Shown one piece after another: positions 3,007 to 59,752 of a stretch of DNA of 64,000 nt (the stretch's first letter is position 1; each line of letters opens with the position of its first letter). Both the position numbers and the translations under genes were made by a program. The notes beneath the pieces were generated by a model. The model was not told the DNA's origin and did no database searches. It saw only the letters and a program-made list of their open reading frames with translations. The stretch is from an uncultured Cytophagales bacterium (GTDB taxonomy: Bacteria > Bacteroidota > Bacteroidia > Cytophagales > Bernardetiaceae), in contig CAVRCG010000004.1 of the NCBI GenBank assembly GCA_963719525.1, forward strand, positions 925,579 to 989,578, given 5' to 3'.

Positions 3007-3046
3007 GAATTAGGAAATGAAAATGGGAAGCAGGAAACAAAAAAGC

Positions 3047-3078
3047 CTTCACTTTTACAAGTGAAAGCTTTTTTTTGA
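3047..3078 (+). terminator. rho-independent terminator (cttcacttttacaagtgaaag + T8)
   Basis: 8-bp stem then T-run immediately downstream of 2746..3006. Confidence 0.5.
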
Positions 3079-3085
3079 GAATAGC

Positions 3086-3121
3086 ATTCTCTCGCCGTTG
3101 TTGGTGTCCCACCACCGACGT
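3086..3121. repeat. REP-like palindromic repeat (family 1: cattctctcgcc-gttgttggtgtccc-accaccgacg)
   Basis: GC-rich hairpin motif in AT-rich intergenic DNA; related copies at 12087, 12250, 26041. Confidence 0.55.
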
Positions 3122-3128
3122 ATAACTT

Positions 3129-3956
3129 TTAGAAAAATACCGTACAATCAGGCTGCTTTTTCTGCAACAAATTTGCTGTCGTTTCTGTAACCCTTGTGTT
3201 TTCACAATAGACGATAGATAGCATACTTGCTTTACTAAGAGGAGTAAGGTCTGCTACTTCTGTTTTCGCAAAAACCACTTCTCTGAGCTTAAGGAGATTG
3301 GAAAGGGGACTAATACTTGAAACTTTGGTTTCTGAAAAAGTAAGTTCACCCAAATTCTCAAGGTCTTTCAAAGGAGCAAGACTAGCTACCTTTGTGCGAG
3401 CCATATAAAGTACTTCCAATGATTTGATATATTTTAAGGGAAAGATATTACTAACAGGAGTATTCGAAAAATCCAAAACTCTGAGTTTGCGCATTCCACT
3501 AAGAGGAGCAAGATTTGAAATCCGAGTATCATAACAATCCAGACGGCTAAGTCCTGTCATGGAACGCAAAGGCTCTAAATCACTTATGCCTGTTCCAGAA
3601 CAATCTAATTCTTTGAGCCCTACAATGTTCCTTAACGGGTCTAGAGAGTTAATACCAGAATTACCATCACACCAGAGAACTTTCAAATTTTTCAAACTTG
3701 CTAAAGGTTCTAATGTACTTAATCCACTTTCTTTACAATCTAGTTTTTCAGCTGCATAAATTTTGCTTAACTCAGCAGTTGAGGGAGAAGCACTAATACC
3801 AAACTTGGTCATAAAAACATTTTTCCAGTTTTTGTCTAATGAGTTCCACCAACTTGTTGAAAGTTGTGCGTTTGCTTGTGTAGTCATGAAGAAATATAGA
3901 CCACAAAAAATGCTTATACGAAATAAAGAAAGCAATTTTTTCATAAATAATTTCAT
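3129..3956 (-). CDS. leucine-rich-repeat (LRR) secreted protein
   Basis: signal peptide MKLFMKKLLSLFRISIFCGLYFFMTTQANA; ~10 tandem 22-aa LRR units (LxxLxxLxxLDCSxTxISDLxPL). Confidence 0.75.
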   Translation of the reverse strand: MKLFMKKLLSLFRISIFCGLYFFMTTQANAQLSTSWWNSLDKNWKNVFMTKFGISASPSTAELSKIYAAEKLDCKESGLSTLEPLASLKNLKVLWCDGNSGINSLDPLRNIVGLKELDCSGTGISDLEPLRSMTGLSRLDCYDTRISNLAPLSGMRKLRVLDFSNTPVSNIFPLKYIKSLEVLYMARTKVASLAPLKDLENLGELTFSETKVSSISPLSNLLKLREVVFAKTEVADLTPLSKASMLSIVYCENTRVTETTANLLQKKQPDCTVFF

Positions 3957-4317
3957 TTTAAAATTCTTAAAAAGGAGTGAATAAAGTTGTTACATACAAC
4001 TGAAATAAATTTGTAGCATAAATAATAAGAATGAAAATGAAATTAAACTATCTAATAATTTATCTTTACCTATTGTCTAATCAAATTCAATTCTAAATTT
4101 CATATATTTCAAAATAGCATTCTATAAGGCTACTTATCAACTATATTCTTATTCTGCAATTATTATGCAAAAAGATATTTTTGAGAATATTACGTCTTAG
4201 AAAGTGAGGGTAATTGAAAAGGATAGCCTAATTTCATCTATCTCTTTCTCTATTCTTTATTTGCTTTTTCATATTTTCCTCTCGTTAGTCGGTACTGAAT
4301 TACATCCAATTAAAATG

Positions 4318-4457
4318 AAACCCACGAATTTATTCGTGGAAGCTACCACCACCTTCTTCATTTTTTTGTTTCTACTCTATTCTAAAATAAAAGGAGTAAT
4401 TTTAATAAAACGGAAAAGTAGATTCATGTAAAAAGTAGTGATTACTTTCGTGGGTTT
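4318..4457. repeat. ~140-bp element bounded by perfect 11-bp inverted repeats (aaacccacgaa / ttcgtgggttt) with internal hairpin
   Basis: IR arms at 4318-4328 and 4447-4457; internal hairpin ccacgaat-tt-attcgtgg at 4322-4339; lies in a 730-bp gene-free AT-rich region. Confidence 0.4.
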
Positions 4458-4692
4458 GGTCTAAACTTCTCTAAACTTTGATGTTGCGTAACGTCAGAAA
4501 ATAACTAACAATATGAGTAACATTCTAGAATTGGAAATATTACTACCAAGTTTTATTCTGTGCAATCGTCTTTTTTCCATAAAATAGGATTTACAAACCT
4601 TATTTTATGAAAAAAGCAAACTATTATTTTGACAAAAACAAGTTCATATACGGAATTTGGAAAATGTTACTCCTACTGAACTAAACTCTAAA

Positions 4693-9509: not shown

Positions 9510-11693
9510 CTATTTCACAAACAAAAGTTCACGATATTTAGGTATTTGCCAAAGCTCATCGTTGACAAACTGCTCTAACTTATCGGTTTCATAGCGAATC
9601 TTGTCAAAATAAGGCTTAATTTTATTGCAATAGGCTTCTGCACCTTCTTGTGGTTCTAAAAGGTTTGCTTTCTTGCGCTCGTTTATCATTTCTTTTACCA
9701 GTTTTGTAGCTTTATTAATGTGTTTCGAAATCCTACGAGCTGTATCATTTATCATTTCCATGTCATTATCCAAATCAATTTTTTTCATTTTATGGATAGT
9801 TTCAGAAATTTCGCCTAGATATTTCATAGCCGAAGGAACGACATGATTTATGGTAAGGTCGCCAATCAAACGAGATTCAATTTGAACTTGATGCAGGTAA
9901 TTTTCTAAGTGAATTTCCTGACGTGCTTCAATTTCATCTTCTGTTAAGATTTTATTATCTGTAAATAATTTCTTTCCTTTTTGGGTAAGATTAGCCTTTA
10001 GAGCTTCTGGAGTAGTTTTGAAGTTAGAAAGTCCACGTTTTTGAGCTTCTTCTGCCCACTCCTCGCTATAATTATTTCCCTCAAAACGAACTGCTTTTGA
10101 TTCTTTGATATAACGGCGAAGTACATTGACAATAGCGAGTTCCCTTTTATCGCCATCTAATTCTAATTTTTCTACTTCTTCATAAAACTTAGTAAGTTGG
10201 TCTGCGACAGCCGTATTCAGAACCATCATCGGAAGCGAACAGTTAGCCGAAGAACCAACGGCACGAAACTCAAATTTATTTCCTGTAAAAGCAAAAGGCG
10301 AAGTACGATTTCTATCCGTATTGTCTAACAAAATTGGTGGAATTTTATCAATTCCTAACTTGATGTACATATTATCTCCTTTTCCAACTTCTACTTTTGC
10401 GTTTTCTTCCAATTCATTCAAAACTTTATCTAACTGCGAACCTACAAAAACAGAAATAATTGCTGGTGGAGCTTCATTTGCACCCAAACGATAATCATTC
10501 GAATCTGATGCAATACTTGCTCGCAACAAATCGGCGTGTTCGTGAACAGCTTTAATTGTATTTACAAAAAAGGCTAGAAACTGTAAATTTTCTTTTGGCT
10601 TATTTGATGGAGCTAATAAATTTTTCCCTGTATCGGTACTCAATGCCCAATTGTTGTGTTTTCCACTTCCATTTACTCCTTGAAACGGTTTTTCATGGAA
10701 CAGAACTTTCAAATTATGACGTTCTGCAACTCTACTCATGACATCCATCAAAACCATATTGTGATCGACGGCTACATTTACTTCCTCAAATTGTGGAGCG
10801 CATTCAAATTGTGCAGGTGCAACTTCATTATGACGAGTCGTAATTGGAATACCTAACTTCAATGATTCAATTTCAAAATCTTGCATAAATGCTTTCACTC
10901 GTGAAGGAATCGAACCAAAATAATGATCGTCTAATTGTTGCCCACGAGCAGGCGCATGACTCAAAACAGTACGACCACCAAGCATCAAATCATGACGAGC
11001 ATAAAAGAGTGATTTATCGACTACAAAAAATTCCTGTTCCACGCCCAAAGTAACCGTAACTTTATTTACGTTTCTATCAAAGAGTTGACAAACATTTGTT
11101 GCAGCACGATTAAGTAAATCTATAGAACGAATAAGAGGCGTTTTATGGTCTAATGCTTCACCAGTATAAGAAACAAAAAGTGAAGGAATACAAAGTGTTT
11201 TTCCTCCTCCACTCTCTACAATAAAAGCAGGAGAAGACGGGTCCCAAGCTGTATAACCACGAGCTTCGAAGGTTACACGAAGTCCACCACTCGGAAAAGA
11301 AGACGCATCAGGTTCTTGTTGAACTAAAGTTGAGCCTTTAAATTCTTCTAATGGAGTTCCGTCTGAACTAGGGCGAAAAAATGAATCATGTTTTTCTGCA
11401 CTCGTTCCACGCAACGGCTGAAACCAGTGTGTATAATGCGTAACACCGTTTTCGATTGCCCATGCTTTCATTCCAGAAGCAACTGCATCGGCAAGACGAG
11501 TATCTATTTTTTGCCCTTTTTCGATAGCTGCATTTAGATTTTTGAAAGTGGTAGAAGACAAGTAGCGTTGCATTGCTTTTTTATTAAAAACATTTACACC
11601 AAAATAATCTGAAATACGATTTGTGGGAGGAGTTACTTTTACTTCTGAACGGTTTTTGGCTTCCTTTAAGGCTTCAAAACGAATATGTGACAT
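9510..11693 (-). CDS. glnN: glutamine synthetase type III (GSIII)
   Basis: 727 aa, Bacteroides-type GSIII length and N-terminus (MSHIRFEALKEAKNRSEVKVTPPTNRISDYFGVNVF…). Confidence 0.9.
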   Translation of the reverse strand: MSHIRFEALKEAKNRSEVKVTPPTNRISDYFGVNVFNKKAMQRYLSSTTFKNLNAAIEKGQKIDTRLADAVASGMKAWAIENGVTHYTHWFQPLRGTSAEKHDSFFRPSSDGTPLEEFKGSTLVQQEPDASSFPSGGLRVTFEARGYTAWDPSSPAFIVESGGGKTLCIPSLFVSYTGEALDHKTPLIRSIDLLNRAATNVCQLFDRNVNKVTVTLGVEQEFFVVDKSLFYARHDLMLGGRTVLSHAPARGQQLDDHYFGSIPSRVKAFMQDFEIESLKLGIPITTRHNEVAPAQFECAPQFEEVNVAVDHNMVLMDVMSRVAERHNLKVLFHEKPFQGVNGSGKHNNWALSTDTGKNLLAPSNKPKENLQFLAFFVNTIKAVHEHADLLRASIASDSNDYRLGANEAPPAIISVFVGSQLDKVLNELEENAKVEVGKGDNMYIKLGIDKIPPILLDNTDRNRTSPFAFTGNKFEFRAVGSSANCSLPMMVLNTAVADQLTKFYEEVEKLELDGDKRELAIVNVLRRYIKESKAVRFEGNNYSEEWAEEAQKRGLSNFKTTPEALKANLTQKGKKLFTDNKILTEDEIEARQEIHLENYLHQVQIESRLIGDLTINHVVPSAMKYLGEISETIHKMKKIDLDNDMEMINDTARRISKHINKATKLVKEMINERKKANLLEPQEGAEAYCNKIKPYFDKIRYETDKLEQFVNDELWQIPKYRELLFVK

Positions 11694-12086
11694 AATTTAG
11701 ATATAGATTAAAAAATTGAGAATTTTGAGTGAATAATTTGTTAAGTAAAAATAGTGATTAGGCTTTTTTTATTAGGTCAATTTTTGAAAAATGAAGTGAC
11801 TTTTATAAATATGACATTTAATTATAAGTCAAATGTAGATAAATTTTGTCAATTAATTGCAAATGACCTTAAAAACAAACCTATTTTTATTTTTTGTAAA
11901 GTTTGTTTTACTATAAATAAACATGTGTTTTTTAATCTTGTTTAGAAAATTATCAATTTACTCAACTCTACCATGGACTTCCTATTCTGTCTAAATAAAT
12001 TCGTATATTTGATGAAGGAAAAAATGAAATAAGTTTAGACTTTCTTAAAGAAATTGCTACACAATATTGGAAAAATTTTTCTAAAT

Positions 12087-12144
12087 GAGTTTCTACCATT
12101 GCTCGTGTCCTCTTCGCCGTTGTTGGTGTCCCCACCAACGACAT
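12087..12144. repeat. REP-like palindromic repeat (composite: ccattgctcgtgtcc + cgccgttgttggtgtccccaccaacgac)
   Basis: hairpin gttggtg-tcccc-accaac; 5' half (ccattgctcgtgtcc) identical to start of the copy at 59684. Confidence 0.6.
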
Positions 12145-12249
12145 CATTTATTATAAAAAAAACACAAATCCATTTTCTACGTTCTTACTAAGTAGAATTT
12201 TTTTAACTTTCGCAAAAACAGCTAAATTTTAGCTTTTATCGATATCTAT

Positions 12250-12278
12250 GCCGTTGTCGGTGTCCTCACCGATGACAC
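12250..12278. repeat. REP-like palindromic repeat (ccgttgtcggtgtcctcaccgatgacacc)
   Basis: 6-bp stem ggtgtc/gacacc; family 1 variant; 20 bp upstream of the DUF445-like gene. Confidence 0.55.
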
Positions 12279-12300
12279 CAATACTAATTAAAACCTTTTT

Positions 12301-15300
12301 ATGGTCGGACTTACTTACGCAGCAAAAGCACTCACAGGCGCATTTGTGGGATATATTACAAATGATTTGGCAATTCAGATGCTTTTCAGAAAGCGTTTTG
12401 GTTTGGGTGGCATTTTTCTCAAAACACATCACGAATTTGTAATCAATATTAGCAAACTCGTCGAAAAAGATATTCTAAATCATAAAACGTTGCTGCCAAA
12501 AATAGAAAACGAACAATTTCAGAAGGCACTTCAAAAAACGGTTCAGACGTATATCGAATCAAAACTGGGAGCTTCTGTTTCAGATAATTTTACGCTACAA
12601 GATATTCCCAAATTTAAGGAAACCACAAATGTAGTTAGGGAACAAATAAAGGGAAGTTTGCCACAAACAGTAGAACCTTTTCTACTTCATCTTTTCAAAA
12701 GAAACTACATTAGGCGATGCCATTTCGGACGAGCAATGGCAAAGTGTAAGTAAGAATATTGTGAAAGAATTAATGGCTGGCGTTTCAGAATGGAATAGTT
12801 TGGAAAAATTGGTGCGTGATTTTACAGATGAGATTGGAAACGAATCTATTTCGTCTTTTATTCATCAAGATTTACAAAATAATATCAAAGAGGAGTTACA
12901 TTTTCTGACAGCCGATTTGCATCTTTTATTAGAAGCACAGCACAAAAAACCAATAGAAAATCTAATCAATCAGACTTTTGAGGAATTAGAAATCGAAGAA
13001 CTAGTTACTAATCTGGCTGGACGAATTTCGAAAAAAACGATTAATTGATATTTTGGGAGAAGAAAAAGCAGAGCATTTAGTGAAAGAAGTTTTGAAGCGT
13101 TTGCAGGCGATTTTGGAAACCGAAGAAGGAATAAAGATTTTAGATGTCTTTTCAGATTTTTTGATTAATACATTAGAAAAGGAAGAAAAAACGATTTTCA
13201 AACTTTTAGACCCAACTACAAAAGTAACATTACAAAAATTCTTTGCTCATCAATTTCCTGCTATTTTGGTAAAAGTAATTGGTTGGCTGTATAGCCGTCA
13301 GAGGGAATTAGAAATTTTGATTGACCAAACTTTTACAAATAATGTAGAATCTGGTTTCAAAAATTGGTTGGTAAAAGTTTTTGTGGGAAGTATTAGCCAA
13401 TTGACCGATATTATTGGAAAAGTAACAAGTATTATTGATTCCTACCGTCGTAATCCTGATGAAGTGGCGAAAGAACTTACGCAGCAAGTTGTAGAATATC
13501 TGGAAAGCAAAAGTATAGGAGAAATTGTTGGAGGACTAAAAAACCAGAATACCGTTGTTTCGCTGACCAAAATTTTGCGTAAAAATGTCTATGATGCCCT
13601 TAATCGAATGGACGTAATGCCGTTAGCAAAACTATTTCTGGAGAAAGAAATTGGAGAATTTATTCCTATTGAAAAACTAACTCCGTTCTTACTTATTAAT
13701 CTAAATAAATTTAGAAAAAATTCTGTACAAACGCTTATTTTTAATGCTAAATTTTCTGAAAGACTTACAAAAGAACTCAACAAGCGAGTAGATAAAATAA
13801 TTGAAACACCTATAAATCAACTTATTGCAGCCGAACAGCGTAAAAAATTAGCGATTAATTTTGAAAAATGGGCAGTCGAAAAATCTCAAAATCACACTTC
13901 TGAAATAGCTGATTTTTTATCAAAAAATATTTCTCAAAGAGTAAATGAGCAGTCTTTGAGTCGTCTTATTTCGGCAGACCAAATTGAAGAATTAGCTATC
14001 GGACTTACAGAACGAGCAGATTCTTACGCCATAGAATTTCTAAAAGACATAGAAAACGAGGAAGTCAAAAATTACTTAGCTTCTCTCAAAAAGTTTCCCA
14101 GCATTTCGGAAGATTTATCAAAAACGCTGCACAAATTTTTGGTTCAAAACTTAGATACGCTTGTTAATGGAAGGATTGAAGAAGTCGTTCAACTTAATTT
14201 GAGCCAACAAACGCCTGAAACTATCCGAACGATGGTGGAAAAGTTTATGGGAAAAGAACTCAAACCGATTACGGCTTTGGGTGCGCTTTGGGGTGGAATT
14301 GCTGGAGGAACGCTTGCTGCAATGCCTGAAATTAATCATTTAGCATTAAAATATACTGTTCCTGCGCTTGCGTATGGGGTTACGGGTTTGGGTACAAACT
14401 GGATTGCGCTGCAAATGATTTTCAAACCTTACGAGAAAAAATATTTCCCTCTTACCAAAAAAACCGTTCCTGTTCCACTTACTCCCGGAATTGTCATAAA
14501 AAATAGAGGACGTTTTGCCGAAAATATGGGAAATTTTGTAGGTAACAAACTAATGAGTGAAGAAGGTTTGAGAACTTCTTTTGATGCCAGCAAAGATAAG
14601 ATTTTAGAGGGTGCGAAAAATTGGATTCAGTCTGATAATTATGCCAAAATTTATGAATATACAGAAGATTATAAAGCCTTTATTGCTCAAAAGGGAGCTT
14701 CTTTAAGTTGGAAATTGGTTGAAGGTTTTACTGAAAATGAAAATGATAGTTTAGACACAAATCAAGAAACTAAATTATCGTCTTTACTCAAAAAAGCAAT
14801 TCAGCCGTATCAAAAATTTACATTAGAAGACATCGATACCTCTTCTTTTGAGAGTACAGTTCTGAAATATATTCAAGATGATTCGCTTTCTGATTTGGTT
14901 TCAGAAACAGCTTTTGAGCAAATAGAAAGCTATTTGAAAAGCCACGAAACGTTGGGCGATGCGCTTCCACAATCTGTACGAACGGTTTTGTACGATAAAA
15001 TAAAAAACTGGATTAGCTTAGAAATGGATTCGTTTTTTGAGAAAATAGATAGTGATGAGCAAGTTAATTTCTTGATAAAACAATTAAATTCGGAATTTGC
15101 AGAACAGGCAACTGAACGAACTATTCAGAGTTATTTGAGCAAAAAGCAAACTCGTAATTTGGAAACAAAACTATCCGATTATTTAGTCGAACAATTACAG
15201 GACACCAAAACACAAGGAAAAGTTTTTGAATTTATCGACAAACATATTTCGACAGAAATCTCTGATGATAAAAAAATAGGAGAATTATTTGATGGTTCTT

Positions 15301-16499
15301 TGCTTAGTCTTCTGACAAATAATATCGATTTTATTATTCAAAAAATGATAGAAACAGGTGCAGAATGGCTTACTCAAAATAGTGAAGAAGTCGCTACACA
15401 AGTTTATGAGAAAGCTTATTCGGAACAAAAAGCTGCATTTATCTATAAAAAAGCAATCAAAAAAACAGCAAAAGAACTGGCTACGGAAGGAATACCAAAT
15501 TTTTTGTTAAAAGAAATTGAAAGTGTAAATCGTTTAGTTCATAATGAAGTAGAACGAATTGGAGAAGTTTCGTTAGGCGAAGTGGGTGTAAAACTCAATA
15601 ATTCGTATTTAGAAAAAACGGTTTCGAATCTTTTGGGAAATGAAACGACACAAAAAGCAGTTAGAGATTTGACAAACGAACTTTTAGAAACTCTTTTCCA
15701 GACTAAAGTTTCAACGTTTATTTCGGTTACAGATATTCATTCTTTGGAGGATTTACAAAATTTACTTCAAACAGAACTAAAACTAGCAGGAAAACACCTA
15801 AGAACGCATTATTTTTCACATCGAACGCAGTTACAAGAAAAGCCAAACGAACTTATTATTGGTGTAATTGAATCGATTTTACAAAAAAATAGCTTCGAAA
15901 ATCAAGAAAATAATTTGACTTCGAATAAAGCGTTATGGCAACGAATTGATAAATCTGCACTTAATCAAACCATTGAAAAAGTAAGCAAACAGATTTTGAA
16001 ATCGGCTGCTTTAGATGCACAAGGGCGAAGAGTGGTCGCACTTTTATTTGAGCGAATCAAAAAAATTCCAGCAAATGAGTTTGTAGATTGGACTATTTTG
16101 GAAAAAGACCTTGCGAGAGCTATTCAAAAACAGTTAGACCAGCCCAAAAACAAAGAACTTTTTGAAGAAGCATTATCTCATTTTATCCAAAAAAATCTCC
16201 TTCCACTACTAAAAAACATTCCAAATGAAAGCAAAGATTTTGTAGTCGAACTTTTATTGAATGCAGGTTTGGAAGCTCTACAAGAAGAATTACCTCATAT
16301 TTTGGCTTCTATTCCGATAAAAGATATTGTTATTTCCGAAATTTCACAGATGCCCCCACAAGAAATTGAAGCCTTGTTTAATTCGTTTGCCAAAAAGTAT
16401 TTTGATAGGCTTGTACAATATGGTTTTGGTTTTGGAATTGTCTTTGGGCTTACGCTAGATACACTTTTAGAGTTTGGGTTGGATTATGTGGAGAAGTAA
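12301..16499 (+). CDS. giant DUF445-like membrane protein (~1390 aa), reading frame broken twice (12753/12761 and 13048/13053)
   Basis: three consecutive ORFs in frames 1,2,0 with continuous sense; N-terminus …GYITNDLAIQMLFRKRF… and C-terminus …FAKKYFDRLVQYGFGFGIVFGLTLDTLLEFGLDYV resemble DUF445-family termini. Confidence 0.5.
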
Positions 16500-16971: not shown

Positions 16972-17016
16972 ATTAAAGAATTACGTTTTGATAAAAACAC
17001 CTAAACACTAAAAATA

Positions 17017-17268
17017 ATGAAAAAAGTAACGATTGAATTAGACAACGACTTGGCTCAAAAAGTAGAGAAATTAGTTGATTCTCATACAAATAAGAATATT
17101 TTATTTGAACGATTTATATCAAATTACAGGGAAGAAATAGAACGCAAGATAGCCAAAATTGATAAAGATTTGAAAAAGTATGAAGCAAAACATAACATGT
17201 CTTCCGAAGCTTTTCATGAAAAATTTGAAAAAGGAGAAGTGGGAGATTCTACTGATGTTATGCTTTAG
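17017..17268 (+). CDS. small RHH-like (putative antitoxin-type) protein, paralog A (truncated by TAG relative to paralog B)
   Basis: 83 aa; MKKVTIELDNDLAQKVEKLV… beta-strand/helix start typical of ribbon-helix-helix; ~60% identical to 18031..18339; downstream in-frame sequence SGIYEMKLNSKIRLKEIS matches paralog B tail. Confidence 0.5.
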   Translation: MKKVTIELDNDLAQKVEKLVDSHTNKNILFERFISNYREEIERKIAKIDKDLKKYEAKHNMSSEAFHEKFEKGEVGDSTDVML

Positions 17269-17401
17269 TCGGGGATTTATGAGATGAAATTGAACAGTAA
17301 AATTAGGCTAAAAGAAATCTCATAAATTATCCTCAACGAACAGTTTTAATTCTATCTTTTTGTAAATTACGATAGAGCTAAAAAAATAAACAAAAATCAA
17401 A

Positions 17402-17617
17402 ATGGAAACAGTATTAATACAAATAAACGACTTAAAAGCCTATCAAATTTTGGAAGGTTTGGAGGATTTGAAAATAATAAAAGTTTTGGAAAAAAATAAG
17501 CAACCTAAAAAAAAACTTTCTGAAAAGTATGCAGGTAAACTCTCAAAAGAAACAGCCGAAAAATTACAAAATCATGTTACTCAAAGTAGAAACGAATGGA
17601 ACAACACAACTATTTAG
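17402..17617 (+). CDS. putative antitoxin of PIN-domain toxin (VapB-like)
   Basis: 71 aa; stop overlaps start region of the PIN gene by 22 nt, the classic TA operon arrangement. Confidence 0.5.
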   Translation: METVLIQINDLKAYQILEGLEDLKIIKVLEKNKQPKKKLSEKYAGKLSKETAEKLQNHVTQSRNEWNNTTI

Positions 17618-17982
17618 TTGATACTAATGCCGTTATAGATTATTTAGCAAATAAATTACCTGTTTCTGGAATGAATTTTATGAACTCCGTTGTTGATTCT
17701 ATTCCTATAATTTCGGTCATTACAAAAATAGAACTTTTAGGTTTTACTACTGCTAACGACGAATATGCTATTTTAGATAATTTTGTAAACGATGCTAGAA
17801 TTATAGAACTCAATAATTTTGTTGTAGAAAAGACTATCTTTATTAGAAAACAGTATAAAATTAAATTACCTGATGCTATTATTGCAGCTACAGCTTTAGT
17901 TTATGATTTAAAAGTGGTTTCAAGAAATGTAAGTGATTTTTCTATTGAAAATTTGGAAGTAATAAATCCACATGGTTTATGA
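17596..17982 (+). CDS. vapC: PIN-domain ribonuclease toxin (VapC-like)
   Basis: 128 aa; PIN acidic residues in LVDTNAVIDYL…, …ISVITKIELL…, …LPDAIIAATALVYDLKVVSRNVSDF. Confidence 0.85.
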   Translation: MEQHNYLVDTNAVIDYLANKLPVSGMNFMNSVVDSIPIISVITKIELLGFTTANDEYAILDNFVNDARIIELNNFVVEKTIFIRKQYKIKLPDAIIAATALVYDLKVVSRNVSDFSIENLEVINPHGL

Positions 17983-18030
17983 TTCTAGAATACAAAACAC
18001 ATTTTAAATATCAATTAAATATCAAGAATT

Positions 18031-18339
18031 ATGACAAAAATAGCGATTGAATTAAACAGCGATTTGGCTCAAAAAGTAGAGAAATTAGTTGATTCTTATA
18101 CGAACAAAAATATATTGTTCGAACAAATTATTGAAAGTCAGAAAGATAAAATAAGACAAGAAATAAACGAAATTGATAAAGATTTGAAAAAGTATGAAGC
18201 AAAATATACTATGTCTTCAGAAAACTTTTATGATAAATTTGAAAAAGGAGAAGCAGGTGATTCTCATGATTTTATGATTTGGGCAGGAATTTATGAAATG
18301 CAATTAAAGCGTAAAATTAAACTTGAAAAAATCTTATAA
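18031..18339 (+). CDS. small RHH-like (putative antitoxin-type) protein, paralog B (full length)
   Basis: 102 aa; MTKIAIELNSDLAQKVEKLVDSYTNKNILFEQ… paralog of 17017..17268. Confidence 0.5.
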   Translation: MTKIAIELNSDLAQKVEKLVDSYTNKNILFEQIIESQKDKIRQEINEIDKDLKKYEAKYTMSSENFYDKFEKGEAGDSHDFMIWAGIYEMQLKRKIKLEKIL

Positions 18340-18849: not shown

Positions 18850-18900
18850 TTCTTATTATTCTCTCGTCCCTCGCCCCCATTCTCTCGCCCCTAATTCCCC

Positions 18901-43249: not shown

Positions 43250-43669
43250 ATGAGTACTACCAATACAGAAAATTTTTTATTCGAAAATGAGTATGTTCTT
43301 TTCGATGTTACCAAATTTCCATTTATCTACATAGAACATACAGCGCATCAGCCTACACCAGAAGAATTTAATGACTACATAAATTGTATGAGTAGAGCCT
43401 TGTTGCGAAATGAACCCTATGTTTTGCTTGTCGATATGAGCAAAGTAGAATATCTGAATACTGAATACAGAACTATTAGTGAGAATTGGAATAAAACTAA
43501 TTCTGCTCATTTGGGTAAACATTGTAAAGGTGCTGCTAATTTGGTGCGTGATGAAGAACAAAAAGCAATATTGAATTATGTACTCAAATTAGCGTATGAC
43601 ATAACTTATCCAAATTTTGTTACTGTAAGTAAAGAAAAAGCAGAGCAATGGTTGGAAGGAAGAGTTTAG
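43250..43669 (+). CDS. small protein, tandem paralog 1 of 4 (unknown function)
   Basis: 139 aa; shared motifs FLFENEY-LFD-TKFP, CKGAAN, EQWLEGRV. Confidence 0.6.
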   Translation: MSTTNTENFLFENEYVLFDVTKFPFIYIEHTAHQPTPEEFNDYINCMSRALLRNEPYVLLVDMSKVEYLNTEYRTISENWNKTNSAHLGKHCKGAANLVRDEEQKAILNYVLKLAYDITYPNFVTVSKEKAEQWLEGRV

Positions 43670-43705
43670 ATTTTAAAACAGTGCTATAATTATGAATTTA
43701 ATTTT

Positions 43706-44122
43706 ATGGATAATTTTAATGTAAAAGAATTTCGTTTTGAGAATGAGTATTTTCTATTTGATGCAACTAAGTTTCCTTATTTGTACATAAGATTTAAAAT
43801 TGAAAAGCCGAACAGGAAACAGTTTGATGAGTATTTATATTGTCTGAATAACGTCATTCTACAACCTCAAAATTACGTTCTTTTTTCTGAACTCAAAGAA
43901 ACAGAATATATACAAGCCGAATTTAGAAAGGAGTTAGACAGTTGGCTTATCAAAAATATTGGACACATTAATCAATATTGTAAAGGTGCTGCAAATGTAG
44001 TAGCCGATGAAAATCAAAGACTACTTTTGACTCAAATGGTAAAAGCTCATCAACCAGTTTACCCTGTTTTTATTACCGATGACGAACAAAAAGCGAAAGA
44101 GTGGCTAGAAGGAAGAGTTTAG
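43706..44122 (+). CDS. small protein, tandem paralog 2 of 4
   Basis: 138 aa; FRFENEYFLFDATKFPYLYI…CKGAANVV…KEWLEGRV. Confidence 0.6.
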   Translation: MDNFNVKEFRFENEYFLFDATKFPYLYIRFKIEKPNRKQFDEYLYCLNNVILQPQNYVLFSELKETEYIQAEFRKELDSWLIKNIGHINQYCKGAANVVADENQRLLLTQMVKAHQPVYPVFITDDEQKAKEWLEGRV

Positions 44123-44158
44123 AAATTAATAAAACATTTTTTTAACTTTATTATCACT

Positions 44159-44575
44159 ATGAAAAATACTGAACCATCAAAATTTCTTTTTGAAAACGAT
44201 TATTGTCTTTTTGACTCTACTAATTTTCCTCATTTGTACATGAAGTTTAAAATTGAAAATCCTGATAAAAAGGAATTTTATGAATATTTAGACTGTATGA
44301 ATAAAATTTTGCTTCACGATAAAAAATATATTGTATTGGTGGAGCTAAACGGTTCGGAATATCTAAAAGCTGAATTTAGGAAAAGGTTAGCCGAATGGAA
44401 CGATGAGCATCATGAAATATTGAAAAAATATTGTAAAGGAGTAGCTTATATTAGCCATTCAGAAGAACAAAGGACGATGCTAAAAATTATTTTAGATGGT
44501 TATGTCTTGCCTCATCCTGTTGTGGTAACAGACACGCAAGAAAAAGCTGAAAACTGGCTGGCAAACAGAATTTAG
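44159..44575 (+). CDS. small protein, tandem paralog 3 of 4
   Basis: 138 aa; FLFENDYCLFDSTNFPHLYM…CKGVAYISHSEEQR…ENWLANRI. Confidence 0.6.
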   Translation: MKNTEPSKFLFENDYCLFDSTNFPHLYMKFKIENPDKKEFYEYLDCMNKILLHDKKYIVLVELNGSEYLKAEFRKRLAEWNDEHHEILKKYCKGVAYISHSEEQRTMLKIILDGYVLPHPVVVTDTQEKAENWLANRI

Positions 44576-44622
44576 ATTCAGAAAAATACTATTGATCATA
44601 TAAATCATTATCTTGTTTTGTT

Positions 44623-45039
44623 ATGAATAATTTTAATCCGAATGAATTTTACTTTGAAAATGAATATTTCTCTTTTGATGCAACAGCATTTCCATATATT
44701 TACATAAAATTCAAACCTCAAGTAGCTGAAAGAGAACAGTTTGATGGTTACATTCATTGTATGAATAAAATTCTTTTACAGGAAAAGTTTTATGTAATTT
44801 TGATAGAACTAGCAGATTCGGAATATTTAAAAGCAGAATTTAGAAAAGAACTAGCAGAATGGAACGTTAAATATATAGCACACATGGGCAAGTTTTGCAA
44901 AGGAGTAGCACATATTAGCCATTCGGAAGAGCAGCGTGTTATGATGAAAACAATTTTGAATAGTTATGTTTCGCCTTATCCTGTTGTGGTAACGGACACG
45001 CAAGAAAAAGCTGAAAATTGGCTGGCAGGACGAGTATAA
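44623..45039 (+). CDS. small protein, tandem paralog 4 of 4
   Basis: 138 aa; FYFENEYFSFDATAFPYIYI…CKGVAHISHSEEQR…ENWLAGRV. Confidence 0.6.
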   Translation: MNNFNPNEFYFENEYFSFDATAFPYIYIKFKPQVAEREQFDGYIHCMNKILLQEKFYVILIELADSEYLKAEFRKELAEWNVKYIAHMGKFCKGVAHISHSEEQRVMMKTILNSYVSPYPVVVTDTQEKAENWLAGRV

Positions 45040-48963: not shown

Positions 48964-50550
48964 TTACACCCAAACAGCAAAAATCTCTTTACCGTTATGT
49001 TGTATTTTCTCTTCTTTCCAATTGGGTTTTTCTCTGTCATCAAAAATAAGCAAAAAACCATTTTCTACGCCGTGAATTTCTAAGTAATTTGAAAGTTGAT
49101 TCAATCCTTTTTCGTGTAATTTTTCTCCTCTCCAAATTTTGAGTTCGATAATATATTTCCATTGCAAGTACGTAACAACAATATCCAAACGCTTTTCCTC
49201 CGACGTTTCAACTTCTTTAAAATCGTGTCCTTGTCCGTTCAGAATGGGTTTTAGAAAAGCTAAGAAAATCAAACGCCATTCTCGTTCTATTATGTTTCTA
49301 TTTTTTTTGCTGTACTGCTCTTTCATAAAAGCCTGAAACTTTCGCAGTATAGTTTCCAAATCCAGACTGCCATCATCTTCTGTAAACTGACTACCCAAAA
49401 AACGTCCTGCACCTAATTGTCCTGCTTCAATAAGACGTGCTGTCATGTATCTATAAATGCGCTGTTCGTAAATGCGATTATGAATTTTTATTATTCCGTT
49501 CTCCTTAAAAATACCATACATAAATCCAATACGTGTGAGAGAAGTATCAGGATTGAAGGGTATGCGTTCTCCTTCTACCAAAACTCTGTAAGTCAAATCG
49601 TACAAACCTTTATTATTCTCTAAATTTTTTATCAAACTATCAAAATTCGTGTTATTTTCTTTTAGTAAAAATTGTACGCTTACTTCCAAATCATCTAATG
49701 TCCATCTATTTTTATCTTCTTTGTTTATTTCGCCTTTATTAGGTAAAATATCTTCTGCAATAGTTTTGCATAATTTGGAAACCAAAAACGGATAACCTGA
49801 CGTATAATAATAGAGTTTTTCTGAAAACTGCTCAAAATCAATTTGCACATTTTCGGCTTCACTATACTGTTTGAGCATAAAGGCAATTTCATTTGGATAA
49901 AATTCCATTACAACCTTAAAATCAGCAGCAATATTCCACGGACTGTTATATTGAGTGTCCTCAGGATTACGTAACTTGAATTTTAAAGATTTGATGTCGT
50001 GTACTCCTGCCAAAACAATGCTATGAAAAGTGTAATGTTGAGGCAAATCTCTGCTCAAATATTTGGTACGCAACATACCCAACAAAACCAAAAAAGGCTC
50101 GTAATTACTACTTGCATCGACTTCATCTATGAGCAAAACTATTTTTTTTGAAGTCAGATGAACAATATCGGTTATAATGCTTGAAAGTTCTTCAATAGTT
50201 TGGGGTAGAACCAACTCCGTTAATTTGTCTTTTCCTTCAAATTCTTTAGAATAATTTAAAGAACGAAGTAGCTGTGTATAAAAAAACTGTCCGAAGGCAA
50301 TATCACTTTTGTAAGCCGAAGAACTTACTCCTTGAAAATTCATCAGAATAGGTAAGTAATCTTTTCTTTCATTCAATAGTCTATGTAAAGCAAAAAGCAT
50401 CGTCGTTTTTCCATACTGACGAGGACGATTAATAACAAAATAATCTCCATACTTTACCATCTTCATAATTCCTGCAAAACGACGACTATCGTCCATCATA
50501 TAATGCTCCGATGGGCGACATGTACCTGTTATATTAAATCCTTTTTTCAT
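48964..50550 (-). CDS. AAA-ATPase-like domain + PD-(D/E)XK nuclease (PDDEXK_9) family protein, copy 1
   Basis: 528 aa; Walker A RPRQYGKTT, Walker B LLIDEVD; C-terminal D…ELK nuclease core (RLDIVVTYLQWKYIIELKIW). Confidence 0.8.
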   Translation of the reverse strand: MKKGFNITGTCRPSEHYMMDDSRRFAGIMKMVKYGDYFVINRPRQYGKTTMLFALHRLLNERKDYLPILMNFQGVSSSAYKSDIAFGQFFYTQLLRSLNYSKEFEGKDKLTELVLPQTIEELSSIITDIVHLTSKKIVLLIDEVDASSNYEPFLVLLGMLRTKYLSRDLPQHYTFHSIVLAGVHDIKSLKFKLRNPEDTQYNSPWNIAADFKVVMEFYPNEIAFMLKQYSEAENVQIDFEQFSEKLYYYTSGYPFLVSKLCKTIAEDILPNKGEINKEDKNRWTLDDLEVSVQFLLKENNTNFDSLIKNLENNKGLYDLTYRVLVEGERIPFNPDTSLTRIGFMYGIFKENGIIKIHNRIYEQRIYRYMTARLIEAGQLGAGRFLGSQFTEDDGSLDLETILRKFQAFMKEQYSKKNRNIIEREWRLIFLAFLKPILNGQGHDFKEVETSEEKRLDIVVTYLQWKYIIELKIWRGEKLHEKGLNQLSNYLEIHGVENGFLLIFDDREKPNWKEEKIQHNGKEIFAVWV

Positions 50551-50587: not shown

Positions 50588-50735
50588 GCAGGGGCGTAGA
50601 ACAAAAAAGCGTATGGCAATTTGTAGTAATGTAGGGACAATGCACGCATTGTCCTATAAAGCAGGAGGGAGTAGAACAAAAAAAACGTATGGCAAGCTAT
50701 AATTATGTAGGGACAATGCACGCATTGTGTTTGCT
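50588..50735. repeat. two tandem ~75-bp direct repeats, each with a gggacaatgcacgcattgtcc hairpin, upstream of copy 1
   Basis: unit 1 50588-50660, unit 2 50661-50735, ~85% identical; a degenerate partial unit follows copy 2 at 52458-52490. Confidence 0.7.
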
Positions 50736-59546: not shown

Positions 59547-59752
59547 GCATGTCGCTGGTGCAACGTTATTACGTTAAGGATTTTCCATGTCGCTCGTGGG
59601 ACACGAGCAACGGAGGAGTTATTTTTTAGTTTAAAAAGAAACTAATTTACCAAATAAAATTTGTTTTCTGACAAAATACCTTACCATTGCTCGTGTCCCA
59701 CGAGCGATACAACCACTACAATCCTTAACTTAATGACATTGCATGAGCGATA
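59547..59752. repeat. MITE-like element: two ~65-bp inverted copies of a REP family-2 unit (gctcgtgggacacgagc core) flanking a 70-bp AT-rich spacer
   Basis: left copy 59547-59612 (…ccatgtcgctcgtgggacacgagcaacgg…); right copy 59684-59752 is its reverse complement (ccattgctcgtgtcccacgagcgatacaacc…); ttaaggatt / aatccttaa also inverted. Confidence 0.6.

What the first reader, a model, noticed from the sequence alone, without database searches (positions are those of the whole stretch)
12087..12278. Family of GC-rich palindromic REP-like repeats scattered in intergenic DNA (family 1: cgttgttggtgtccc…caccaacgac)
Related short hairpin-forming units occur at 3086-3121, 12087-12144, 12250-12278 and 26041-26090, always intergenic and strikingly GC-rich against the AT-rich background. 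Several share a cattctctcgcc / tcttcgcc leader that also appears at 18868 and 55519 without the hairpin. The 12087 copy is composite: its 5' half (ccattgctcgtgtcc) belongs to a second family seen at 59547-59752 and 25795-25817. These units look like species-specific REP/BIME-type repeats that could act as terminators, mRNA stabilisers or RAYT substrates. I do not recognise them as a catalogued family.
Basis: seen in the sequence. Interest (0 to 1): 0.5.

Follow-up and report, generated by a model that had tools for sequence, protein, structure and literature searches.

The report
REP hairpin repeats of a Bacteroidota RAYT
The GC-rich hairpins are real REP elements, short palindromic repeats that in related bacteria flank a dedicated REP-associated tyrosine transposase (RAYT); they occur across the order Cytophagales, so this is a little-described branch of a known system.

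Summary
The window holds five canonical copies, one long-loop variant and one truncated half-copy of a single 25-26 nt hairpin. Its form is 5'-CC-[G/A]TTG-NNN-GTG-TCC(Y)-CAC-N'N'N'-[C/T]GA[C/T]-3'. All copies are intergenic and 49-59% GC, against about 31% for the window.

They differ only by compensatory changes in three stem pairs.

The family is not species-specific. It occurs throughout Cytophagales: Bernardetia, Flexibacter, Hugenholtzia, Arcicella, Spirosomataceae and others.

In relatives it flanks, in inverted orientation, a ~176-179 aa HUH/Y1 transposase. That protein matches NCBIfam "REP-associated tyrosine transposase", PDB 4ER8, and the subclass 2.6 signature of Quentin et al. 2018. 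Among RAYT loci picked by protein alone, 58/81 have a sense copy upstream and 56/80 an antisense copy downstream. Background is 7 hits in 112 kb.

The window itself carries only a C-terminal RAYT relic (23029-23229). The copies show no orientation bias relative to genes, and no Rfam family matches.

A Runella member of this family is already listed in a supplementary table of Quentin et al. 2018. Verdict: a new member of a known kind, of modest interest.

The parts
3095..3119 (+). Canonical REP copy (TTG subfamily, 3-nt loop, one stem mismatch): CCGTTGTTGGTGTCCCACCACCGAC. It follows the pyrimidine-rich leader cattctctcg (3085-3094). It lies 10 nt beyond the stop of the minus-strand gene 3129-3956, so it is antisense to that gene.
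   Evidence: Sequence; exact 16-mer match; covariance model 29.1 bits, E=6.8e-6; DNA fold -5.6 kcal/mol.
12096..12110 (+). Truncated 5' half of a CTC-subfamily copy (CCATTGCTCGTGTCC), joined by tcttcg to the next full copy. It is absent from the orthologous site in Bernardetia sp. OM2101.
   Evidence: Exact match to 59684-59698; 15-nt gap in the OM2101 alignment.
12117..12142 (+). Canonical REP copy (TTG subfamily): CCGTTGTTGGTGTCCCCACCAACGAC. It has a 10-bp stem with one T.G pair and a TCCC loop. It sits in the divergent intergenic region between the type III glutamine synthetase-like gene (9510-11693, -) and the DUF445 gene (12301, +).
   Evidence: Covariance model 51.9 bits, E=3.2e-12; DNA fold -8.2 kcal/mol; orthologous copy in OM2101 with 3 substitutions.
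12251..12276 (+). Canonical REP copy (TCG subfamily): CCGTTGTCGGTGTCCTCACCGATGAC. It ends 24 nt upstream of the ATG at 12301.
   Evidence: Covariance model 47.7 bits, E=4.6e-11; orthologous copy in OM2101 (L037 1670-1695).
26054..26092 (-). Long-loop variant: GCCGTTGTTGGTATTTTAGCGTAGCGACACCAACAG. It is the same type as the copy that follows the RAYT gene in Bernardetia sp. ABR2-2B.
   Evidence: Covariance model 17.3 bits, E=0.013; by-eye comparison with L107 10545-10610. It folds weakly on its own (z=-0.8).
59589..59613 (-). Canonical REP copy (CTC subfamily): CCGTTGCTCGTGTCCCACGAGCGAC. It is the left inner arm of the inverted doublet.
   Evidence: Covariance model 39.2 bits, E=1.1e-8; DNA fold -9.3 kcal/mol, z=-3.9.
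59684..59708 (+). Canonical REP copy (CTC subfamily), with the basal pair changed on both sides (A-T instead of G-C): CCATTGCTCGTGTCCCACGAGCGAT. It is the right inner arm of the doublet.
   Evidence: Covariance model 35.7 bits, E=1e-7; DNA fold z=-6.0.
59552..59750 (.). REPIN-like inverted doublet. Two ~70-nt composites are arranged with their 5' ends facing, about 70 nt apart. Each composite is a REP hairpin followed by AATCCTTAACNTAATRACRTTGCA..AGCGAYA.
   Evidence: Alignment A1; single-stranded DNA fold -52.4 kcal/mol against -19.0 +/- 3.1 for shuffles, z=-10.7.
23029..23229 (+). C-terminal relic of a RAYT gene: ...YEQKLYYIHNNPVQGIWELAESLDKCPYSSYNFYEFDDTITYPFLTH... It keeps the Y motif (YIHNNP) and the SS motif. 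The HUH-containing N-terminal two thirds are missing, because ftsH ends at 22855.
   Evidence: tblastn with the L008 RAYT, 44% identity, E=2e-5; blastp to all 120 RAYT homologues, 47-58% identity, best E=1.9e-13, with no N-terminal remnant; reading frame from the sequence.
23255..23288 (-). Possible decayed REP at the position where intact REPtrons carry the inverted downstream copy (GCCGTT...CCAACAACAGACA on the minus strand). It no longer folds. This assignment is uncertain.
   Evidence: Sequence; by-eye comparison with L107; no stable fold.
25793..25817 (+). REP of a sister family (GCTA foot, 10-bp stem, TTT loop): GCTATCGCTCGTTTTTAACGAGTGA.
   Evidence: Exact reverse complement of the REP listed for the Flexibacter litoralis RAYT AFM02970.1 in Quentin et al. 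2018, Table S1; DNA fold z=-5.9.

Best explanation
These are REP elements: non-autonomous, hairpin-forming repeats. They belong to a REPtron system whose enzyme is a Bacteroidota clade of REP-associated tyrosine (HUH/Y1) transposases, TnpA_REP subclass 2.6 of Quentin et al. 2018 (which those authors equate with Bertels' RAYT group 5).

Each unit has four parts:
- an unpaired CC foot, preceded by YYYYG;
- a ~10-bp stem whose lower part varies by compensatory changes;
- an apical GTG/CAC;
- a TC(C/T)Y loop.

The proposed mechanism is by analogy with E. coli TnpA_REP and IS200/IS605 TnpA. When DNA is single-stranded, for example on the lagging-strand template, one strand extrudes the hairpin. The RAYT binds the hairpin and foot, cleaves nearby through its tyrosine, and rejoins. 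This copies or moves units and produces tandem clusters and inverted doublets (REPINs).

What is shown:
- the family and its structural covariation;
- intergenic, clustered copies without orientation bias;
- order-wide distribution;
- inverted flanking of RAYT genes;
- REP type tracking RAYT relatedness;
- a RAYT relic in the window.

What is inferred:
- recognition as single-stranded DNA;
- the cleavage position;
- that these particular copies were spread by a RAYT;
- any present-day activity.
For: 1. One family, above chance. My own scanner found 211 hits in the window plus loci, against 1 in reversed-sequence controls.

2. The hairpin is selected. In 42 distinct copies, 97.9% of cells pair. 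There are 57 double-sided changes against 19.4 in shuffles (0/500), and register slides collapse pairing to 29-62%. The three middle pairs were not fixed by the search pattern.

3. Distribution. About 90 of them come from Cytophagales and related Bacteroidota and have complementary arms. The roughly 16 hits from other phyla mostly lack complementary arms.

4. REPtron architecture in named relatives.
- Spirosomataceae L008: RAYT at 3886-4416 between REPs at 3844(+) and 4439-4464(-).
- Bernardetia sp. ABR2-2B L107: canonical REP at 9953-9990(+), about 15 nt upstream of the RAYT ATG, with a long-loop variant (-) after the stop.
- Hugenholtzia L108 and Arcicella L110 show the same arrangement.

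5. An ascertainment-independent test. In 80 metagenomic RAYT loci found by protein plus the four loci above, a sense REP lies within 200 nt upstream in 58/81. An antisense REP lies within 200 nt downstream in 56/80, and both are present in 45/77. Background is 7 hits in 112 kb. The foot is CC in 90/137 copies.

6. Co-evolution. The RTWG-type lower stem is seen in 26/30 REPs beside RAYTs at least 56% identical to the Bernardetia enzyme. It is seen in 3/36 beside RAYTs at 52-56% identity and in 3/73 below 52%.

7. Enzyme identity. NF047646 "REP-associated tyrosine transposase" matches 30/30 sampled members (best E=6e-25). The only PDB hit is 4ER8, TnpA_REP. The motifs NHIH, WQ, YIH[YHN]NP and SS, and the ~176-179 aa length, fit the subclass 2.6 signature.

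8. The window holds a RAYT relic.

9. Organisation resembles REP/BIME/REPIN. Of 202 copies, 137 have a neighbour within 200 nt: 53 tandem pairs, 23 pairs with 5' ends facing and 9 with 3' ends facing.
Against: - No intact RAYT lies in the window, and the source genome could not be retrieved. A cognate active enzyme in this organism is therefore not shown.
- Both copies at 12117 and 12251 sit at orthologous sites in a species about 84% identical. At this locus the copies are therefore old, not recently mobile.
- The RAYT clade scores just under NCBIfam's curated cut-off (71-74 bits against 80), and the one member scanned against Pfam matched no Pfam model.
- The canonical 5' GT[AG]G guide of well-studied REPs is absent.
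- The invariant columns in alignment A2, and the apparently universal T.G pair, are partly imposed by my search pattern. RAYT-proximal copies in other lineages often have a perfect CAAC arm.
- No biochemical evidence exists for this subclass.
Confidence: 0.85

Rival explanations
1. They are cis-acting RNA elements (terminators, mRNA stabilisers or protein-binding RNA hairpins) that function in transcripts. Their resemblance to REPs would be secondary.
For: - The stem covaries and includes G.U-compatible pairs.
- The lax terminator scan flags 12119-12142 and 3099-3120.
- One copy sits 24 nt upstream of a start codon and is conserved in a sister species.
- REPs in E. coli are known to affect mRNA stability (general knowledge).
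Against: - There is no orientation preference relative to flanking genes: 38 sense and 33 antisense between co-directional genes, and 28 between divergent genes.
- The 3095 copy is antisense to both neighbouring genes. A separate terminator-like hairpin with T and A tracts (3042-3076) lies just past it on the transcript.
- No T-run follows the stem across 196 copies.
- Inverted doublets and head-to-tail arrays are frequent.
- No Rfam match appears at either threshold.
- This reading does not explain the tight inverted flanking of RAYT genes.
Confidence: 0.05
2. They are MITEs, or the ends of an insertion sequence moved by a classical DDE/DEDD transposase such as the IS110-family gene at 23578-24582. 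RAYT would not be involved.
For: - The 59552-59750 unit looks like a ~200-bp MITE with ~70-nt inverted ends.
- An IS110-family transposase lies beside the RAYT relic and the decayed REP.
- IS110-family elements are known to insert into REPs (general knowledge; ISPpu9 in PMC8450116, title and abstract only).
Against: - Most copies are single 25-26 nt hairpins or head-to-tail arrays without terminal inverted repeats.
- What is conserved is complementarity plus the loop, not the arm sequence.
- The gene consistently bracketed by the hairpins is the RAYT. I did not test for IS110 enrichment near copies.
Confidence: 0.04
3. They are double-stranded palindromic binding sites for a host DNA-binding protein (nucleoid or regulatory). 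They would have been maintained by selection at fixed loci and not spread by transposition.
For: Copies at 12117 and 12251 are retained at orthologous positions in a sister species. Copies between divergent genes outnumber those between convergent genes, 28 to 13.
Against: - Palindromic operators conserve arm sequence. Here the arms vary by compensatory changes while the asymmetric loop and the one-sided CC foot are conserved.
- Presence and absence differ between close relatives.
- Tandem arrays of up to five or more units occur.
- Copy type tracks the RAYT lineage.
Confidence: 0.04

Closest known systems
REPtrons of TnpA_REP subclass 2.6 (equated with Bertels' RAYT group 5), Bacteroidetes (Quentin et al. 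2018, PMC6006769)
   Same: - The protein signature matches: ~179 aa, NH[LIV]H, WQ, YIH[QN]NP, SS.
- The hairpins lack GT[AG]G and flank the gene.
- Table S1 lists GCCGTTGTTGGTGTTATCACCAACAACC for Runella slithyformis AEI49282.1. That has the same foot and stem as the window's TTG subfamily.
- Table S1 also lists the exact window 25793-25817 sequence for F. litoralis.
   Different: The paper calls the structures "atypical", found by manual inspection and with weaker secondary structure. It gives no consensus. Here the family has a defined architecture (CC foot, 10-bp stem, apical GTG/CAC, TCYY loop), order-wide spread, clusters and doublets. The CCGTTG-type family is not among the REPs that paper lists for F. 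litoralis.
E. coli REP/BIME with TnpA_REP (subclass 2.2; PDB 4ER8)
   Same: - Short imperfect palindromes that are extragenic and clustered.
- Several subfamilies occur within one genome.
- The RAYT gene is bracketed by inverted REPs.
- The enzyme is homologous: 4ER8 is the only PDB hit, with the HUH and Y motifs aligned.
   Different: There is no 5' GTAG guide tetranucleotide; the foot here is CC. The conserved determinant is the apical stem and loop. Sequence relatedness to 4ER8 is remote (E=4.8e-5).
Pseudomonas REPINs (RAYT group 3 / subclass 2.5)
   Same: Inverted REP doublets fold into one long hairpin (59552-59750). Pairs with 5' ends facing are the commoner inverted arrangement (23 against 9).
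   Different: Head-to-tail arrays and singletons are more common here than doublets (53 tandem neighbour pairs). The guide motif differs, and population-level mobility was not examined.
GTAG- and CGTC-tagged REP superfamilies (Di Nocera et al. 2013, PMC3733652)
   Same: Size, stem length (8-10 bp), loop length (3-5 nt) and head-to-head dimers are alike. That paper reports CGTC repeats in Bacteroidetes.
   Different: The unit carries neither tag (the foot is CC, the 3' end CGAC). CGTC repeats were reported to lack any associated transposase, whereas this family flanks RAYT genes.
IS200/IS605 elements (TnpA_IS200)
   Same: The enzyme belongs to the HUH/Y1 superfamily, and the DNA hairpins it is thought to recognise are subterminal.
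   Different: The gene is bracketed by inverted copies of the same hairpin, not by distinct left and right ends. The hairpins far outnumber the gene. The Y motif is YIHxNP, not Y---Q.

Membership tests
REP elements (RAYT-associated repetitive extragenic palindromes) | Short (20-40 nt) imperfect palindrome able to form a stem-loop | tested here: met
   25-26 nt unit with a 10-bp stem. 97.9% of cells pair across 42 distinct copies, with compensatory changes. DNA folds give -5.6 to -9.3 kcal/mol.
REP elements (RAYT-associated repetitive extragenic palindromes) | Many copies per genome, predominantly extragenic | tested here: inconclusive
   Six significant copies lie in 64 kb, all intergenic. Of 202 copies in Cytophagales loci, 175 lie outside ORFs of at least 100 aa.
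REP elements (RAYT-associated repetitive extragenic palindromes) | Copies flank a RAYT gene in inverted orientation (REPtron) | tested here: met
   Four named relatives show it. Among protein-selected loci, 58/81 have a sense copy upstream, 56/80 an antisense copy downstream and 45/77 both, against 7 hits in 112 kb of background. In the window only a RAYT relic remains.
REP elements (RAYT-associated repetitive extragenic palindromes) | Clusters and inverted dimers (BIME/REPIN-type organisation) | tested here: met
   137/202 copies have a neighbour within 200 nt. The doublet 59552-59750 folds as one hairpin, z=-10.7.
REP elements (RAYT-associated repetitive extragenic palindromes) | Cleavage and rejoining of the REP strand by the cognate RAYT | not testable with these tools
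   This needs biochemistry with a purified enzyme (for example P0083) and single-stranded oligonucleotides.
Canonical GTAG-tagged REP superfamily | Unpaired 5' GT[AG]G tetranucleotide at the foot of the hairpin | tested here: not met
   The foot is CC (90/137 RAYT-proximal copies), preceded by G and a pyrimidine run. A true GTAG REP does occur elsewhere in the window (50631-50654) and is clearly different.
CGTC-tagged REP superfamily | Terminal CGTC tag, 8-9 bp stem beginning with A-T pairs, CCA tail, no associated transposase | tested here: not met
   No CGTC tag is present; the unit ends in CGAC with variable flanks. It is also associated with a RAYT.
TnpA_REP subclass 2.6 (equated with Bertels' RAYT group 5), for the associated protein | ~179 aa; HUH motif NH[LIV]H; WQ; Y motif YIH[QN]NP; SS motif; mostly Bacteroidetes | tested here: met
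   P0083, P0040, P0005 and P0050 carry MPNHIHLIW, FW[QE]RN (FWERN in P0040), YIH[YHN]NP and YSSAKFY, at 173-179 aa. The window relic has YIHNNP and PYSS. NF047646 matches 30/30 members but below the cut-off where reported. No phylogenetic placement against the published subclass set was made.
Intrinsic transcription terminators | GC-rich hairpin followed by a U-tract, downstream of a gene and in sense orientation | tested here: not met
   Downstream T frequency is 0.2-0.56 with no run. Orientation is unbiased. The 12117 copy has no upstream same-strand gene.
Any curated Rfam RNA family | Covariance-model match | tested here: not met
   There are no hits at gathering thresholds over the window. 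Only chance-level hits appear at E up to 1 in 11900-12400.
CRISPR array | Identical repeats regularly spaced by unique spacers of about 25-50 nt | tested here: not met
   Arrays in relatives have 4-19 nt gaps of repeated sequence. The window's copies are scattered. The neighbouring proteins scanned are unrelated to Cas; no dedicated cas search was made.

The most novel reading that the evidence does not exclude
Subclass 2.6 RAYTs may read their REPs differently from the E. coli enzyme. They would use a conserved apical module (GTG/CAC closing pairs plus a TC(C/T)Y loop) and a two-base CC foot in place of a GTAG guide. The lower stem would be free to co-diversify with the enzyme: RTWG-type stems go with the Bernardetia-like RAYTs, and TGGTTC/TCGGTC-type stems with more distant ones. 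If so, this clade offers a natural, sequence-readable specificity code for a domesticated HUH transposase, spread over an entire bacterial order.
Probability: 0.45. Interest if true: 0.45.

Novelty: new member of a known kind. Interest (0 to 1): 0.3.

Why it matters
REP/RAYT systems have been studied almost entirely in Proteobacteria. [quoted passage not shown]

This window and its relatives give that clade three things:
- a concrete consensus for the REP;
- evidence of REP-RAYT co-variation;
- evidence of long vertical persistence, from orthologous copies in two Bernardetia species and a decayed REPtron.

That helps genome annotation: these GC-rich islands in AT-rich Cytophagales genomes are not genes, RNAs or CRISPRs. 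It also supplies defined substrates for testing how a RAYT that lacks the GTAG guide recognises its DNA. It does not reveal a new kind of system.

Tried and rejected
- My first regex (GGTGTCCYNCACC) had the loop one base too long and missed the copies. I replaced it.
- Exact-protein look-ups of three window proteins, meant to identify the source genome, found nothing. The P0050 look-up also failed. The organism is inferred only from 82-88% DNA identity to Bernardetia sp. OM2101.
- Pfam gave no hit for the L008 RAYT. NCBIfam did.
- Rfam gave nothing at the gathering threshold or at E up to 1.
- The two other F. litoralis REP families from Quentin's table (GCTGTCGCTTGG..., CTRGCGCAAG...) are absent from the window.
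- I considered CRISPR because of the tandem arrays in MAG_621 and L030. I rejected it because the gaps are 4-19 nt of repeated sequence.
- I considered a conserved T.G wobble as a mark of strand-specific function. It is real in all five window copies. Its apparent universality, however, was imposed by my genome-scan pattern (YGAY), and RAYT-proximal copies in other lineages are often perfectly paired.
- I looked for N-terminal RAYT remnants upstream of the relic and found none.
- The "leader" 12-mer was tested and is only marginally above chance as a set.
Full report
**Observation**

Reading the flagged coordinates shows GC-rich hairpin units in an AT-rich window of about 31% GC. The 16-mer GCCGTTGTTGGTGTCC has 8 matches at up to 3 mismatches, against 0.09 expected. 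CCATTGCTCGTGTCC has 5 against 0.37.

They differ only in the three middle base pairs (TTG/CAA, TCG/CGA, CTC/GAG), which change on both sides. The basal pair also changes on both sides, G-C to A-T in the 59684 copy.

A covariance model built later finds six significant copies in the window:

| Position | Strand | E-value |
|---|---|---|
| 12111-12148 | + | 3e-12 |
| 12245-12282 | + | 5e-11 |
| 59583-59619 | - | 1e-8 |
| 59678-59714 | + | 1e-7 |
| 3089-3125 | + | 7e-6 |
| 26054-26092 | - | 0.013 |

In addition, 12096-12110 is a truncated 5' half. All copies lie between ORFs. The stretch 59552-59750 is an inverted doublet of a ~70-nt composite. It folds as one long single-stranded DNA hairpin (-52.4 kcal/mol, z = -10.7).

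**Distribution**

About 90 are from Cytophagales or related Bacteroidota. These include Bernardetia sp. OM2101 and CTOTU7301, a Flexibacter MAG, Microscilla, Arcicella, Emticicia, Spirosomataceae and several unnamed MAGs.

In those loci the unconstrained NNN/N'N'N' triplets are complementary. The roughly 16 hits from other phyla mostly lack complementarity.

The window is 82-88% identical to Bernardetia sp. OM2101 over two overlapping stretches. It therefore comes from a Bernardetia-like organism. Exact-protein look-ups did not find the source genome.

In 42 distinct copies the 10-bp helix pairs in 97.9% of cells. There are 57 double-sided changes, against 19.4 in shuffles (0/500). Sliding the register drops pairing to 29-62%. 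One caveat applies: the invariant columns were fixed by my pattern, and only the middle triplets and the basal pair are free evidence.

The covariance model R1 finds 196 copies in the 90 loci. My own scanner finds 211 copies, against 1 in reversed sequences.

**Orientation and organisation**

Relative to flanking ORFs there is no strand preference:

| Context | Copies |
|---|---|
| Sense, between co-directional genes | 38 |
| Antisense, between co-directional genes | 33 |
| Between divergent genes | 28 |
| Between convergent genes | 13 |
| Inside ORFs of at least 100 aa | 27 |

Two thirds of copies have a neighbour within 200 nt. There are 53 tandem pairs, 23 pairs with 5' ends facing and 9 with 3' ends facing. 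Some MAGs carry head-to-tail arrays of five or more units with gaps of about 4-19 nt.

Across 196 non-redundant copies the flanks show G at -1 (73%) and pyrimidines at -2 to -5 (68-86%). No T-run follows the stem. The 12-mer CATTCTCTCGCC recurs exactly at 18878 without a hairpin, which I cannot explain. As a set, the leader matches are marginal.

**The associated gene**

I screened the loci for ORFs bracketed by copies. This turned up a 176-aa protein in a Spirosomataceae MAG (L008 3886-4416). It lies between a sense copy at 3844 and an antisense copy at 4439-4464.

The protein matches NCBIfam NF047646 "REP-associated tyrosine transposase" (E=1.3e-20, 73.8 bits, cut-off 80). Pfam gave nothing.

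It has 2240 homologues at E up to 1e-10. Several are named RayT by their sources, including proteins from Bernardetia sp. ABR2-2B, Hugenholtzia roseola, Arcicella, Emticicia and Microscilla marina. All 30 sampled members match NF047646. The only solved structure matched is E. coli TnpA_REP, 4ER8, with the HUH and Y motifs aligned.

The motifs MPNHIHLIW, FW[QE]RN, YIH[YHN]NP and YSSAKFY, and the 173-179 aa length, fit subclass 2.6 of Quentin et al. 2018. That subclass is described as mostly Bacteroidetes, flanked by "atypical secondary structures" without GT[AG]G, and is equated by those authors with Bertels' RAYT group 5.

**REPtron test**

- In Bernardetia sp. ABR2-2B a canonical copy (CCGTTGTCGGTGTCCCCACCGACGAC, E=3e-12) ends about 15 nt before the RAYT start codon. 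A long-loop variant in inverted orientation follows the stop. It is of the same type as window 26054-26092.
- Hugenholtzia and Arcicella show the same bracket.

To remove ascertainment by DNA pattern, I fetched 80 metagenomic loci by RAYT protein alone. A structure-only detector required apical GTG-TYN(N)-CAC and a stem of at least 8 bp. Its results:

| Test | Result |
|---|---|
| Sense copy within 200 nt upstream | 58/81 |
| Antisense copy within 200 nt upstream | 13/81 |
| Antisense copy within 200 nt downstream | 56/80 |
| Sense copy within 200 nt downstream | 10/80 |
| Sense upstream and antisense downstream together | 45/77 |
| Background, more than 600 nt from the gene | 7 hits in 112 kb |
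| Foot is CC | 90/137 |

The loops are TCCT, TCCC, TCTC, TCT and similar. The lower stem tracks enzyme relatedness. RTWG-type stems occur in 26/30 copies beside RAYTs at least 56% identical to the Bernardetia enzyme. They occur in 3/36 at 52-56% identity and in 3/73 below 52%. This analysis also showed that the T.G pair (GTTG/CGAC), present in all window copies, is a lineage feature and not universal.

**In the window itself**

tblastn with the RAYT finds a C-terminal relic at 23029-23172: YEQKLYYIHNNPVQGIWELAESLDKCPYSSYNFYEFDDTITYPFLTH. It aligns with the C-termini of all 120 retrieved homologues at 47-58% identity, with best E=1.9e-13. No N-terminal remnant survives.

A sequence resembling a decayed inverted copy follows at 23255-23288, though it no longer folds. 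An IS110-family transposase gene comes next. The window thus contains a dead REPtron.

**Age and turnover**

Both copies at 12117 and 12251 are at orthologous positions in OM2101, with a few substitutions. The half-copy at 12096 is unique to the window. Conversely, OM2101 has a copy after the gene corresponding to window ~48600 where the window has none. So copies persist across speciation, but gains and losses do occur.

**Literature**

Quentin et al. 2018 (PMC6006769), Table S1, list GCCGTTGTTGGTGTTATCACCAACAACC beside Runella slithyformis AEI49282.1. This is a member of this family. For Flexibacter litoralis they list TCACTCGTTAAAAACGAGCGATAGC, the exact reverse complement of window 25793-25817. 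Their other F. litoralis REPs are absent from the window.

Di Nocera et al. 2013 (PMC3733652) sort most REPs into GTAG- and CGTC-tagged superfamilies. This unit carries neither tag.

Bertels et al. 2017 (PMC5581495) found that only groups 2 and 3 have flanking 16-mers more abundant than those flanking insertion sequences. Group 5 was on a par with insertion sequences.

**Rivals**

- An RNA element or terminator is disfavoured by the lack of orientation bias, the absence of a U-tract, the inverted doublets, the absence of any Rfam match and the RAYT bracket. The terminator scan does flag two copies, but by lax criteria in AT-rich DNA. Neither of those copies is placed to terminate a neighbouring gene.
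- A DDE/DEDD-mobilised MITE, or a duplex protein-binding site, does not explain conserved complementarity with a conserved asymmetric loop and foot. Nor does either explain the co-variation with RAYT lineage.

**Verdict**

The finding is a real REP family of a Bacteroidota RAYT clade. It is widespread in Cytophagales and partly recorded in a supplementary table, but not described as a family. Mobilisation, recognition as single-stranded DNA and the cleavage site are inferred by homology, not shown. It is a new member of a known kind, of modest interest.

Noticed in passing
window 23578-24582 (+), with flanks about 23290-24700: An IS110-family transposase gene (DEDD_Tnp_IS110 plus Transposase_20) sits immediately after the RAYT relic and the decayed REP. 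The motif AAGACCAAC recurs at about 23302, 23414 and 24630, and GACCAAC also occurs in the decayed REP. Since IS110-family elements are known to target REPs, this element may have inserted into the REPtron's downstream REP.
   Followed up: partly
window 50631-50654 and 50707-50730 (+): Two copies of a canonical GTAG-tagged REP (GTAGGGACAATGCACGCATTGTCC) lie inside a 76-nt direct repeat (50603-50652 / 50679-50728). A second, classical REP type therefore coexists with the CC-foot family.
   Followed up: partly
window 48964-50550 (-) and 50823-52424 (-): These are tandem duplicate genes, 96-97% identical over the two 300-nt blocks compared. They encode ~530-aa proteins with a predicted AAA-ATPase domain and a C-terminal PD-(D/E)XK nuclease domain. 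The GTAG REPs lie in the spacer between them.
   Followed up: partly
window 20793-21668 / 21671-22855 (+); 12301-12753 / 12761-13048 / 13053-16499 (+): ftsH is split into two adjacent ORFs, and a long DUF445-type gene into three. These are frameshifts or in-frame stops, so either pseudogenes or sequencing errors. This may be why exact-protein look-ups of window genes found nothing.
   Followed up: no
window 18857-18900 (+): A C/T-rich stretch, TATTCTCTCGTCCCTCGCCCCCATTCTCTCGCCCCTAATTCCCCC, lies between two minus-strand genes. It contains an exact copy of the 12-nt leader that precedes the REP at 3085, but no hairpin. It could be a REP-less footprint or an unrelated motif.
   Followed up: partly
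window 43250-45039 (+): Four tandem paralogous genes of about 138 aa, with a ~455-464 nt period and 61-82% nucleotide identity. The first has no Pfam match.
   Followed up: no
window 3042-3076: A separate AT-flanked hairpin (aaaaagccttcacttttacaagtgaaagctttttttt) lies next to the REP at 3095. It looks like a bidirectional intrinsic terminator and is probably the real terminator of gene 3129-3956(-).
   Followed up: no
L007 7692-7934, L030 4435-4567, L040 5179-5334, L096 5091-5226, L106 1031-1167: Head-to-tail arrays of 4-6 REP units, with a 30-39 nt period and short repeated linkers. They occur in a Bacteroidota MAG (MAG_621) and a Cytophagia MAG. This array type is less typical of the inverted-dimer REP organisation described for Proteobacteria.
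   Followed up: partly
window 16993-17292 and 18007-18306: A 300-nt direct repeat at 78% identity spans small ORFs (17596-17982, 18031-18339), suggesting a local gene duplication.
   Followed up: no
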